Shown here piece by piece: positions 43,076 through 59,756 of a DNA stretch of 64,000 nt; position 1 is the stretch's first letter; each line of letters begins with the position of its first letter. The notes under the pieces were generated by a model, which was given only the letters and a program-made list of their open reading frames with translations, did not search any database and had not been told where the DNA came from. The DNA is from Amphiscolops sp. MND2022 (Eukaryota): assembly GCA_964187785.1 (NCBI GenBank), contig OZ076414.1, positions 36,022,001-36,086,000 of the forward strand. Direction: 5' to 3'. The position numbers and the translations under genes were made by a program.

Positions 43076-45892
43076 AAGATTATGCAAATTCTGCAAATTC
43101 TATATAACCCAAATAGAAATAAGCTTGGATGAGAAAGGAAGATTTAAGAAGCAAGTGTTTCCGGAACGACTTTCATTTGAAATGAAAGAGAAATATTTAA
43201 AAGTAAGAAGATATTTTTTTGTGAAAAAGAAGCAATGACATTTTGACAGGAAGAGATATAGATATGTTATAATGTGTGATTTGTAAAAAGCGAGTAAGTG
43301 GAGGCTTTTGATAAGGGATAATTCAAAAGAGCGGAACAATAAGACAAAAGAAAACGATCAAAAAAGTATCAATTTGAAAAGTGAACATCGTAATTTGTTT
43401 CCGAGGTCTAATTTAGGCTTGTCAGTTACACAGTAAGAGATAAAGTTGCATTTTGAGAGAAAAAAAGGTGAATGAAAGAAGAAAAGTTGAGAGAAAAAAT
43501 CTGTCAAAATTAATTAAAAGGAAGAAATTGTAAAAATAGAAGAATATTGATTTGAGAAGAAAGAAGTTTTTTGGAAATATTGATAAGTTTTTTTTAATTT
43601 ACCCAAAGTTGAAGAAGTAAGAAATGAAATAATGAAAATTGCAGAAGGATAGAAGGTTTAAGATGAATTTAGAAGAGGTAGGAAATGTAGGCGTTTGAAG
43701 GATAACAAGTTTTTTAAGTTGACATATATGGTGGAAAGAGTGAGAGGTTGAATATCGGTACTATGAAGGTGAAAAAGATTTTGAAGAGTACGGTAAGTTT
43801 CAACAAAGTGATTGAGGATTACAAAAGGATCGGTATTAGGAGTAGATTCAATATGTGGGCGAAGGAGATTCAGGATTTCAGTAACAAGTATGTCAGTGGG
43901 ACAGAAGAAAGAGTTTATGCAAACGTTGGGAATGACAGTTTGAAGAAGATAGGATGAGGGAATCGGTGTTACGACAGCAGTAGGAGGGGCAATTGAAGAA
44001 TCATTAGAGGAGGAATATCTTTTGGAAGAGCTTTAATAATTTATTCAGGTATACTATGCGTGGTTGGAAAGTATTTATTTAGTTTTTTGAGAATGAATGA
44101 AGAGAGTTTAGCAATGAAAAAATTCAGTTGGGCAATGGAGTGAAGTATATGGACAAGCGATGTATAAAGAGAACAAAAATTATCATCAAGGGGAGTTTCA
44201 ACAAATTTAGTAATTTTTGGAAGGAAATTGGATCATTAGTAGGTATGTTTGTAGGTAAAAGAACAAGATCATCCTCGAGATCAAGTGGTTCCTGTGGAAC
44301 GAAAAGAGGACGAATGAGGTCATGATAAGGAGAAAAGATGTAATTTTGTTTGACTGGGTCGTAGTTTCGGATTGTACCAACAGTAAAGAGGTGATTTAAA
44401 AATAGTGAGAGAGGTAAGAGAATGGAGAAATGGATTTGTGACTTTGAAATATAAAGTTTTGTTTTCTGTTTTCATGAAGTGATTTCGAGATTTCAACCGA
44501 AACGTAATCTTGGGAAGATTATGCAAATTCTATATAACCCAACTAGAAATAAGCTTGGATGAGAAAGGAAGATTTAAGAAGCAAGTGTTTCCGGGACGTT
44601 TTTCATTTGAAATGAAAGAGAAATATTTAAAAGTAAGAAGATGATTTTTTGTGAAAAAGAAGCAATGACATTTTGACAGGAAGAGATATAGATATGCTAT
44701 AATGTGGGATTTGTAAAAAGCGAGTAAGTGGAGGCTTTTGATAAAGGATAATTCAAAAGAGCGGAACAATAAGATAAAAGAAAACGATCAAAAAAGTATC
44801 AATTTTGAAAAGTGAACATCGTAATGTGTTTCCGAGGTCTAATTTAGGCTTGTCAGTTCTACAATAAGAGATAAAGTTGCATTTTGAGAGAAAAAAAAGG
44901 TGAATGAAAAAAGAAAAGTTGAGAGGAAAAATCTGTCAAAATTAATTAAAAGGAAGAAATTGTTAAAATGGAAGAATATTGATTTGAGAAGAAAAAAGTT
45001 TTTTGGAAAAATTGATAAGTTTTTTTTCTAATTTACCCAAAGTTGAAGAAGTGAAAAATGAAATAATGAAAATTGCAGAAGGAGAGAAGGTTTAAGATGA
45101 ATTTAGAAGAGGTAGGAAATGTAGGTGTTTGAAGGATAACAAGTTTTTTAAGTTGACATATATGGTGGAAAGAGTGAGAGGTTGAATATCGTTACTATGA
45201 AGGTGAAAAAGATTTTGAAGAGTACGGTAAGTTTCAACAAAGTGATTGAGTATTACAAAAGCATCGGTATTAGGAGTAGGTTCCATATGGGGGCGAAGGA
45301 GATTCAGGATTTCAGTAACAAATATGTCAGTGGGACAGAAGAAAGAGTTTATGCAAACGTTGGGAATGACAGTTTGAAGAAGATAGGATGAGGGAATCGG
45401 TGTTACGACAGCAGTAGGAGGGGCAATTGAAGAATCATTAGAGGAGGAATATCTTTTGGAAGAGCTTTAATAATTTATTCAGGTATACTATGCGTGGTTG
45501 GTTTATTTATTTAGTTTTTTGAGAATGAACGAAGAGAGTTTAGCAATAAAAAAATTCAGTTGGGCAATGGAGTAAAGTTTATGGACAAGCGATGTACAAA
45601 GAGAACGAAAATTATCATCAAGAGGAGTTTCAACTAATTTAGTAATTTTTGGAAGGAAATTGGATCATTAGTAGGTATGTTTGTTGGTAAAAGAACAAGA
45701 TCATCCTTGAGATCAAGTGGTTCCTGTGGAACGAAAAGAGGACAAATGGGGTCATGATCAGGAGAAAAGATGTGATTTTGTTTGACTGGGTCGTTGTTTC
45801 GGATTGTACCAACAGTACAGAGGTGATTTAAGAATAGTGAGAGAGGTAAGAGAATGGAGAAATGAATTTGTGACTTGGAAATATAAAGTTTT
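43076..45892. repeat. Tandem duplication with ~1.44-kb period in the 3' accessory region of copy 2
   Basis: agattatgcaaattct...gaaatataaagttttg at 43077-44461 and 44516-45892; paired ORFs 43100/44530 and 43748/45182. Confidence 0.9.
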
Positions 45893-46899
45893 GAGGGTGT
45901 TTTTGTTCAAGAAAAAGTTTATAGGTTTGGTGGTGAGGCTTTTTGACTAAAAGAGCTGTGGTGATATCGTTGGAGTTAGTTTTAAGATCATGTTGTGTAG
46001 GTTTGAGAAAGTTGAATTGGAATTGGAAGAAACGAATACGGTTTTTTGCCAGGTTGAGAGTTGTTCAAGATTTTTAAAGGCATATGCAACATAGTAGTCA
46101 AAGTTTTCATCTTTAAAAGTAGTAGGAGTCGTATGAAGAGAAGTGAGATTGGCTTTAAAATTGGGCTGAGTTCGAAGAAATTCATCAGTCATAGTACTGG
46201 ATTGAGAAGGATTTTTTTACTGCGTTTAATACAGGAGGAAGAATACCAGATTCAATGAAGACTGGATCTTCGAGGATCTTGGTGGGAACGGTTTAGGTGG
46301 CATTGTCAATAGTTATTTGGAGATTATTAGGTGGAGGAGTAGGTGAGTGACGAGTTTCAAGATTAGAAGGGGTAGGTTGAGTATTTACAATTGGAGTATT
46401 GGAAGAGGAAGGTTTAATTCCAATGGTGGGTTCAGGAGTTGTGATGACTTCTACATCATCTTCTCATTTTGTGAAGTTATATTGAGATGTGAATGAGTAT
46501 ATACGAACTAATCTTTTCTAATATTCAAAGATTTATCATAGAGTCGATGTGTGCTGTGTAGTGAGAATGATGTGAGATATAGAGGGTAGGTGATTTAGAG
46601 ATTACATATGCAGCGAGAAAAAAACTATTGTAAAAAGAACTTTGATGGATGATTGAAAAAATGTCTTTTGAAAAGATGAAACGAAAGCAAGAGTAGAGAT
46701 TCGAGAAAGAGCGACCGATCGATGAGAATAAAAGAAGGAGAATGATAGGGTGAGGATGAGAAATTGATAATGAATTCGAGTTAAAATAGTCCAGACCTGA
46801 TGAATAAACTTTGGCGGGACTTTTGGGTGGAGTGATTATACAATTAACAGATAATAATGGGATGCCAATGTATTTCATGGGTGGTGGAGTAGGAGGATA

Positions 46900-59446: not shown

Positions 59447-59456
59447 GGTCGCACCA
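59447..59456 (-). promoter_or_regulatory. Primer-binding site TGGTGCGACC next to the 5' LTR
   Basis: Plus strand ggtcgcacca, overlapping the terminal base of the LTR end TAACT. Confidence 0.7.
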
Positions 59457-59756
59457 GTTAAAGTACTTATAGTTTTTGGATTGGAAAGTTACCAGATCTT
59501 AGATAGATTATTTCAAAGGAACAGTACTTTAAGGAGACGCTAACAGAGCTGCAGTGTTGGGTCTTAAGCGAAAACAACTTGATTGTGAAGAGTTGGTTTC
59601 GTTGTGTCAAGGTATAAGTCAGATTAATGCTTTACAGTATTGAGTATGGCAGTGAAAACAAATTAGATATAGCTTGATTACAGTATTATTCAGAGTACAT
59701 AAATCTAGTCTAGACATCAAGCAAAGAGGGGGGTGAATGATCGAATATAGATTACA
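59456..59756 (-). repeat. 5' LTR of copy 2 (~300 bp)
   Basis: Minus strand TGTAATCTATATTCGATC...CTTTAACT followed by the PBS; homologous to 36248-36443. Confidence 0.7.

What the first reader, a model, noticed from the sequence alone, without database searches (positions are those of the whole stretch)
43076..59756. Giant Ty3/gypsy element with a class III (gB/chuvirus/rhabdovirus-G-like) envelope gene
Seen: PR-RT-RH-IN order and a YIDD-type RT, followed by an ORF with C-x10-CG...TLDPTEC-x6-G and G-x5-DC...CY-x2-IPV-x-Y...DPITR...C motifs and a C-terminal TM-like segment, present in both copies. Known: these spacings resemble chuvirus-type glycoproteins and VSV G (TPSVEQCKESI); gB-like envs are known from BEL/Pao elements (Tas, Anakin), whereas insect errantiviruses carry baculovirus F-like env. 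Inference: a retrovirus-like, potentially cell-to-cell infectious lineage in this animal, unusually long (at least 16.7 kb without its 3' LTR).
Basis: partly seen in the sequence, partly recalled or inferred. Interest (0 to 1): 0.75.

Follow-up and report, generated by a model that had tools for sequence, protein, structure and literature searches.

The report
Complex envelope retrotransposon with CUG-started gene
This is a decayed copy of an 18-kb virus-like jumping gene whose many relatives in the same animal genome carry a herpes/chuvirus-type envelope gene (already known in such elements) plus several conserved extra genes, one of which likely starts at CUG instead of AUG so that ribosomes would slip past it and make the envelope from the same message.

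Summary
43076-59798 (minus strand) is a decayed Ty3/gypsy LTR element with a gB/chuvirus-type (class III) env. That pairing is real but published (Chary and Hayashi, PMC13524379). The window's copy is full of stops and frameshifts; its 3' end is lost in a gap.

Four related families in this genome have open frames and LTR pairs 97.8-100% identical, so they spread recently. They are 17.8-18.9 kb and share an unusual layout: 2-3 small hydrophobic leader ORFs, one gag-pol frame, a 410-446-codon ORF X with no Met, env, ORF4, ORF5.

ORF X is under purifying selection like env (dN/dS 0.10-0.18). Its homology starts at a CTG with A-3/G+4 in 23 of 24 fetched copies (CTG is 17 of 1058 other Leu codons). 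It holds 0-3 ATGs where 6-8 are expected. Likely mechanism: CUG initiation plus leaky scanning to env, as in rice tungro bacilliform virus. My paper searches found no such report for a retrotransposon. No RNA evidence; infectivity untested.

The scan had not noted this element on other DNA; it noted other accessory-gene gypsy families in this genome. Verdict: new variant of a known kind.

The parts
59459..59798 (-). 5' LTR (TG...TA, about 340 bp, with a 33-bp duplication at its start)
   Evidence: other genomic copies match from 59798; LTR ends and 4-bp TSDs defined in relatives
59446..59456 (-). primer binding site, two bases after the LTR; same TGGTGCGAC core in all four families
   Evidence: sequence
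58892..59008 (-). leader small ORF 1 (38 aa, hydrophobic); homologues in families A, B, C
   Evidence: pN/pS 0.09/0.57, 0.06/0.34, 0.27/0.44
58759..58872 (-). leader small ORF 2 (37 aa, hydrophobic); homologue in family A, look-alike in D
   Evidence: pN/pS 0.05/0.81 and 0.06/0.56
58397..58510 (-). truncated leader small ORF 3 (78 aa in family A)
51169..58271 (-). decayed gag-pol, a single frame in relatives; capsid 56941-56343, zinc knuckle 56286-56173, protease 55505-55321, RT 54759-54050, RNase H 53917-53524, integrase core 52601-52128, SH3-like 51855-51691
   Evidence: Pfam on relatives
49470..50848 (-). decayed ORF X: Met-less Ser/Pro/Thr-rich protein with a YNLR motif and a conserved C-terminal domain; the conserved CTG is still present at 50848
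46790..49463 (-). decayed class III (PF24664, gB/chuvirus-like) env; 858-923 aa in relatives
45092..46570 (-). decayed ORF4 (430-495 aa in relatives; no known family); start approximate
43088..44461 (-). tandem duplicate (95.7%) of 44518-45893 (3' part of ORF4 and downstream); may be a gap-edge assembly artefact
42876..43075 (.). assembly gap hiding the 3' end of the element
17730..36416 (-). second, more rearranged copy (same 5' junction; env interrupted by a LINE; 3' end truncated at the end of env)

Best explanation
The stretch is a dead copy of a complex, env-bearing Ty3/gypsy retrotransposon lineage whose recently spread relatives keep a gB/chuvirus-type envelope gene and several conserved accessory genes, and likely make ORF X from a CUG start and Env from the next strong AUG of the same subgenomic RNA by leaky scanning. 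Shown by sequence: LTRs, PBS, 4-bp target duplications, one gag-pol frame, open and purifying-selected leader ORFs, X, env, ORF4 and ORF5, the conserved CTG, and the ATG shortage in X. From established Ty3/gypsy biology: tRNA-primed reverse transcription in Gag particles and integrase insertion. Inferred: (1) an RNA whose 5' end lies in the pol-X spacer (internal promoter or splice), about 0.7; (2) CUG start for X and scan-through to env, about 0.7; (3) Env is a membrane-fusion protein that lets particles enter other cells, about 0.5; (4) X accompanies Env as a co-expressed helper, with a YNLR motif that may bind nucleosomes as foamy virus Gag does, about 0.25.
For: Ty3/gypsy: Retrotrans_gag, RVT_1, RT_RNaseH, Integrase_H2C2, rve and SH3_Tf2-1 in order in all four families; best PDB hits are Ty3 RT, E 9e-35, ahead of CaMV, foamy and MLV RTs (12 hits). 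Recent spread: LTR pairs 97.8-100% identical in 17 of 18 copies examined (one had no PBS in the fetched stretch), exact 4-bp TSD in 13 of those 17; stop-free env in 49 of 50, 48 of 50 and 42 of 53 top-scoring matches of families B, C, D (best candidates only). Env: PF24664 80-96 bits; atlas top hits 0.94, Monjiviricetes fusion, rhabdo G and gB clusters; viral-fold search gives xinmovirus, chu-like and rhabdo-like glycoproteins at ranks 1-4, 6 and 7 and an uncharacterised chu-related protein at 5, E 7.5e-5 to 7e-4; 16 cysteines at matching spacing in four families, no R-x-K/R-R site; 10 cysteines invariant across 22 sequences down to 23% identity. ORF X: dN/dS 0.10-0.12 within family A and 0.18 between B and C, against 0.07-0.12 for env and 0.11-0.12 for integrase; no Met in any family; codon-level conservation begins at the CTG and upstream DNA has non-triplet indels; CTG in 23 of 24 copies versus 17 of 1058 Leu codons in 12 other ORFs; the pattern was written down (note) before family D was fetched and held there in 9 of 10 copies; 0-3 ATGs versus 5.6-8.1 expected from codon shuffles in 23 copies, while 12 of 12 other ORFs have at least as many out-of-frame ATGs as expected. 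X and ORF4 homologues exist in other assemblies: P0443 and P0216 match this genome at 49% and 48% identity at best.
Against: No RNA, ribosome or protein data. Families B, C and D keep 2-3 out-of-frame ATGs inside X, some with a purine at -3 or G at +4, and per-copy P values there are only 0.01-0.05; copies and families are not independent. The site-finding pattern required A at -3 and GA after the Leu codon (only the Leu codon was free), though the position came from the protein alignment. No stable hairpin follows the CTG. Most spacers hold 1-3 ATGs upstream of the CTG. The env model is poor (pLDDT 45.7, pTM 0.37) and gave no significant match to solved structures (best KSHV gB, E 0.11; HSV gB Z 3.7, rmsd 8.7, 151 aligned). 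The env C-terminal hydrophobic segment passes a 1.6 hydropathy threshold in only 2 of 4 families. No RT tree was built. YNLR is a four-residue resemblance only.
Confidence: 0.7

Rival explanations
1. ORF X is the second exon of a spliced RNA that takes its AUG from the leader or gag, and env has its own spliced RNA, as in insect errantiviruses (recalled); the CTG is incidental.
For: Pyrimidine-rich YAG sites lie in the pol-X spacer of families A and D. Residual ATGs in X of B, C, D.
Against: No AG at the point where homology starts; no acceptor with 9 of 12 pyrimidines in B or C; no donor-like site shared by the leaders. Splicing explains neither a rare CTG codon fixed in four families nor the ATG shortage in all three frames.
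Confidence: 0.15
2. X starts at CUG on its own RNA, but Env is reached by another route (second promoter, splice, shunt or termination-reinitiation at the X/env overlap) rather than by scanning.
For: X's end overlaps or abuts env's start in every family; B, C, D keep a few ATGs in X.
Against: The shortage of out-of-frame ATGs across 1.2-1.4 kb (0-2.5 per kb versus 8-20 per kb elsewhere) is what scanning predicts and the other routes do not need.
Confidence: 0.15
3. The env is kept for a cell-internal or host-related role (particle sorting, superinfection block) and the elements never leave the cell.
For: No data on particles; the membrane anchor signal is weak in two families; gB of herpesviruses needs partner proteins, and entry of gB-type errantiviruses is unknown (PMC13524379 passage).
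Against: Full-length ectodomain under dN/dS 0.07-0.12 with all cysteines kept in four families at about 52% identity.
Confidence: 0.25
4. The element is a BEL/Pao retrotransposon with a chuvirus-like glycoprotein.
For: Such BEL/Pao elements exist in mosquitoes (PMC13524379 section 14; Dezordi preprint seen as a search listing).
Against: Only Ty3/gypsy-type Pfam domains hit; no Pao-type family hit at E up to 0.05-0.1; RT best matches Ty3; 4-bp TSD.
Confidence: 0.03

Closest known systems
HSV/gB-type Ty3/gypsy errantiviruses of metazoans (Chary and Hayashi, eLife, PMC13524379; abstract, sections 5 part 1, 6, 7, 14 and searched passages read; supplements not read)
   Same: Ty3/gypsy pol, gag-pol-env order, chuvirus/gB-like env with conserved cysteines and no obligatory furin site, many near-identical copies.
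   Different: Here gag-pol is one frame, 1.27-1.69 kb with ORF X separates pol from env, and 2-3 leader ORFs plus ORF4 and ORF5 add up to 18-19 kb. The main text has no hit for 'accessory', 'extra' or 'splic', and its two 'additional ORF' hits do not describe such genes. Its first-pass filter allowed 1000 nt between POL and ENV outside insects, with wider manual windows for some groups.
Rice tungro bacilliform virus and badnaviruses (Pooggin and Ryabova, PMC5902531; passages read)
   Same: Reverse-transcribing elements that start a long first ORF at a non-AUG codon and keep about 900 nt free of AUG so that ribosomes scan on to the next ORF.
   Different: Plant pararetroviruses, AUU start, full pregenomic RNA, no envelope. 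Here the start is CUG, the RNA would be subgenomic and the downstream gene is env; and here it is inferred, not measured.
MLV glyco-Gag (PMC3042739, start of abstract seen in listing) and dicistronic rev/env and vpu/env RNAs of SIV/HIV (passage in PMC5902531)
   Same: CUG initiation in a retrovirus; env as the downstream cistron reached by scanning.
   Different: Glyco-Gag is an in-frame extension of Gag; vpu and rev start at AUG. ORF X is a separate CUG-started gene of no known family.
MDG1-group sORF1/sORF2 of Drosophila (Voichek et al., PMC11952523; abstract and section 8 read)
   Same: Small membrane-protein ORFs in a Ty3/gypsy element.
   Different: Those elements lack env; sORF2 has an ectodomain, basic patch and often a myristoylation motif, which the 37-79 aa leader ORFs here do not show.
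Planarian Burro and other large LTR elements with extra ORFs (Arkhipova and Yushenova review, PMC6431247; passages read; author names recalled)
   Same: Large gypsy-like elements with env homology; extra ORFs between pol and env or after env are known in general.
   Different: Burro exceeds 30 kb with env inside the polyprotein; by that review's 20-kb limit this element is not 'giant'.

Membership tests
Ty3/gypsy (Metaviridae) | pol order PR-RT-RH-IN | tested here: met
Ty3/gypsy (Metaviridae) | RT/RNase H and integrase of Ty3/Tf2 type | tested here: met
   best PDB hit Ty3 RT E 9e-35; H2C2, SH3_Tf2-1, p58_C hits, several below curated cut-off
Ty3/gypsy (Metaviridae) | LTRs, tRNA PBS, short TSD | tested here: met
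   17 LTR pairs, 13 exact 4-bp TSDs; window copy lacks a visible 3' LTR
Ty3/gypsy (Metaviridae) | placement in an RT phylogeny with labelled references | not tested
BEL/Pao | Pao-type gag/RNase H Pfam domains (family names recalled) | tested here: not met
   none among the hits for 8 gag-pol pieces of four families
HSV/gB-type errantiviruses (PMC13524379) | env of chuvirus/gB (class III) type | tested here: met
   PF24664 80-96 bits; atlas; viral-fold search
HSV/gB-type errantiviruses (PMC13524379) | five-domain gB fold in a confident model | tested here: inconclusive
   pLDDT 45.7; weak gB rows only
HSV/gB-type errantiviruses (PMC13524379) | gag, pol, env together in multiple near-identical copies | tested here: met
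   ORF X lies between pol and env
HSV/gB-type errantiviruses (PMC13524379) | cysteine-bridge class and RNase H bridge 'mini' domain | not tested
   definitions are in figures not held
F-type errantivirus env | furin site followed by fusion peptide, F-type family hit | tested here: not met
   no R-x-K/R-R in four env proteins; no F-type Pfam hit
sORF2/FAST-like fusogens | TM segment plus basic patch, amphipathic ectodomain, often MGxxxS/T | tested here: not met
   hydrophobic segment present; no MG start or clear basic patch by inspection
non-AUG/leaky-scanning polycistronic RNA (RTBV type) | conserved near-cognate start in strong context and few internal AUGs | tested here: met
   partial in B, C, D (2-3 ATGs)
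non-AUG/leaky-scanning polycistronic RNA (RTBV type) | both proteins made from one RNA | not testable with these tools
   needs RNA and ribosome data

The most novel reading that the evidence does not exclude
A lineage of 'complex' invertebrate retrovirus-like elements with seven to eight genes, in which a CUG-started accessory protein is translationally coupled to a gB-type envelope and supplies the partner function that gB-type fusogens otherwise get from other viral proteins, with small leader membrane proteins and ORF4/5 acting like the accessory genes of complex retroviruses.
Probability: 0.25. Interest if true: 0.85.

Novelty: new variant of a known kind. Interest (0 to 1): 0.6.

Why it matters
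The published survey leaves open how gB-bearing errantiviruses express and use their envelope. This lineage gives a specific, testable answer for expression: a conserved CUG-started gene with ATGs purged ahead of env. It also offers four or more orphan proteins kept under strong selection across families about 50% diverged and in other assemblies. Met-less genes like X are invisible to AUG-based annotation, so similar ones may be overlooked in other retroelements. The basic pairing of Ty3/gypsy with a class III env is not new.

Tried and rejected
Splice acceptor at the start of X: looked for, no AG at that point. ORF X-env fusion suggested by a 1323-aa cluster member: it is an internal duplication of env. 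Env fold against solved structures: no match at E 0.001, PAS-like rows are a 65-residue common fold, profile searches of PDB sequences gave 1 irrelevant and 0 hits. ORF4: no Pfam family, no usable atlas hit, poor model (pLDDT 49.4), only coiled-coil-like rows at Z under 6; this shows neither novelty nor absence. X, ORF5 and leader ORFs: no Pfam hit. RNA: no RNA holder listed. Target-site preference for the 370-bp flanking repeat: none of the other scored LTR matches extends into it. Names for env relatives: 1 of the records read carried a name, 'hypothetical protein'. Host phylum not determined; a recalled guess (acoel) was used as a search word only and is untested. A BEL/Pao control set from this genome was not obtained. 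Literature: 'LTR retrotransposon' + 'CUG start codon' + 'gypsy' gave 0 papers; 'retrotransposon, CUG, non-AUG, leaky scanning, env' gave 12 papers, 11 listed, none on such an element by title or abstract start; searches likewise. The library lacks most subscription papers and the eLife supplements were not read, so a prior description is not excluded.
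Full report
Observation. The window is G000:C6:36022001-36086000 of a 1.07-Gb genome. Self-comparison shows two minus-strand copies of one element, about 17730-36416 and 43076-59798. In the given coordinates no long frame survives; tblastn with proteins of a natural relative maps gag-pol to 58271-51169, a further gene to 50848-49470, env to about 49463-46790 and another gene to about 46570-45092, nearly all pieces with stops and frame changes. The 5' LTR begins at 59798 and is followed by a PBS. 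The 3' end is hidden by a 1.4-kb tandem duplication and a gap. The two copies share the same 5' junction with a 370-bp repeat; in four aligned regions they share 5 indels (2 non-triplet) out of 36 and 30 scored, and each has 27-98 private substitutions per region. One insertion, duplicated early and then decaying separately, is the simplest reading (inference). The best other match to 43100-46000 in the genome is 79%, so this subfamily is old.

Relatives. A 79-aa env piece gave 5125 candidates, 150 scored, more than 20 of them in frames of 900 codons or more. Database env clusters at 54-55% identity map back to this genome as three more families, B, C and D, at 95-100% identity, with stop-free env in 49 of 50, 48 of 50 and 42 of 53 scored matches (only the best candidates are scored). 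I fetched 24 copies (6 A, 4 B, 4 C, 10 D), 18 with both ends. LTR pairs were found in 17 of 18, 267-419 bp, 97.8-100% identical, 13 with an exact 4-bp TSD, all with the PBS core TGGTGCGAC. Six measured copies are 17.8-18.9 kb.

Classification. Gag-pol is one frame in the least damaged copies with Retrotrans_gag, a CCHC knuckle, a DSGA protease motif, RVT_1 (YIDD), RNase H, H2C2, rve and SH3_Tf2-1. The RT matches Ty3 best among solved structures. No tree was built. Env hits PF24664 at 80-96 bits, the atlas puts it with Monjiviricetes fusion, rhabdovirus G and gB clusters, and a low-confidence model (pLDDT 45.7) still retrieves xinmovirus and chu-like glycoproteins first among viral folds, but nothing significant among solved structures. 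Sixteen cysteines are kept in all four families and there is no furin site. The wide search found 2181 relatives at E 0.001, including full-length unnamed proteins at 25-36% identity. Class III is therefore supported by family and feature evidence, not by a confident structure.

What is already known.

What is not covered there. All four families carry extra genes. (1) Two or three small leader ORFs, most hydrophobic; the first is recognisable in A, B and C, and all seven pairwise tests give pN below pS. (2) ORF X between pol and env, 410-446 codons from its conserved start, without Met, dN/dS 0.10-0.12 within A and 0.18 between B and C, equal to env and integrase; comparisons between A and B/C give 0.37-0.48 with saturated dS. 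(3) ORF4, 430-495 aa, dN/dS 0.08-0.15 in the closer pairs, no known family. (4) ORF5, about 300 aa in A (dN/dS 0.29-0.37) and 150-160 aa in B, C, D, with no similarity tested between A and the others. Homologues of X and ORF4 on short contigs match this genome at no more than 49%, so the layout probably extends to other organisms.

How X starts. Protein similarity between families begins at a Leu-Asp pair. The Leu is CTG, with A at -3 and G at +4, in A, B and C. I noted this as a prediction, then fetched family D: 9 of 10 copies have it. Overall 23 of 24; elsewhere CTG is 17 of 1058 Leu codons. Upstream DNA is not conserved as codons. Between the CTG and the env start there are 0-1 ATGs in A, 2 in B, 3 in C and 2-3 in D, against 5.6-8.1 from codon shuffles (23 copies; L037 left out because its frame is broken), while 12 of 12 control ORFs meet or exceed expectation. 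This is the signature described for rice tungro bacilliform virus: non-AUG first ORF, AUG-free path to the next (PMC5902531). Against it: residual ATGs in B, C, D, no hairpin after the CTG, ATGs in the spacer, non-independence of copies, and no RNA data. The window copy keeps the CTG at 50848; copy 1 does not.

Function of X. It is Ser/Pro/Thr-rich with a conserved 110-residue C-terminal block, no hydrophobic segment and no Pfam hit. All four families keep R/H-x-YNLR in X, and A, C and D have YNLR or YNFR at the integrase tail. The foamy virus Gag nucleosome-binding peptide contains YNLR with the Arg as anchor (PMC12125541, passages). This is a lead only.

Verdict. Shown: a decayed member of a recently active, 18-19-kb, gB-type env Ty3/gypsy lineage with conserved accessory genes. 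Likely: CUG start and leaky scanning couple X to env. Untested: particles and cell entry. The scan's earlier notes list no look-alike of this element but several other gypsy families with accessory genes in this genome (unchecked). Searches for a prior report of a CUG-started retrotransposon gene found none; supplements of the eLife survey were not read and may hold such elements. New variant of a known kind; interest 0.6.

Noticed in passing
window 19368-23126 (+): A LINE with open ORF1 (PHD finger, 306 codons) and ORF2 (endonuclease-RT, 945 codons), in one frame separated by a single stop, sits antisense inside env of copy 1; the same ORF1 occurs at L044:8777.
   Followed up: partly
window 32850-37717 and 37725-42591: 4.87-kb tandem duplicate at 99.7% next to the gap; probably an assembly artefact or a very recent duplication.
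   Followed up: no
window 59795-60163 and 36420-36831: A 370-bp dispersed repeat abuts the 5' LTR of both copies; similarity between the copies stops exactly at its outer CTAG end, which may mean a Helitron-like element carried the duplication (guess).
   Followed up: partly
window 61048-61959 (-): Intronless trypsin-family ORF (PF00089, 87.9 bits) with His and Ser motifs present.
   Followed up: no
window 55338-56162; L024:6427-7068, L045:7036-7773, L051:7076-7681, L063:6789-7415: A second frame stays open for 200-270 codons over the Arg/Ser-rich part of gag in all families; family A also has a 320-codon second frame over integrase (L025:456-1418). Could be overlapping genes or a by-product of composition.
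   Followed up: no
L026:1496-1509 and equivalents: No purine tract before the 3' LTR; instead a conserved C2-3-GG motif in all four families, an atypical plus-strand primer site.
   Followed up: no
L025:2300-2420, L024:3050-3075: A TCTAGACT motif occurs both in the family A LTR and in the conserved part of the pol-X spacer; candidate shared promoter element.
   Followed up: no
L032, L033, L035: Some family A copies lie in long (TATAC)n arrays, and the copy in L024-L026 lies in a satellite.
   Followed up: no
L066:2452, L069:2471: Family D has a 60-aa ORF starting just after the PBS.
   Followed up: no
ORF X of families A-C: The sense strand is extremely G-poor (7-10% G).
   Followed up: no
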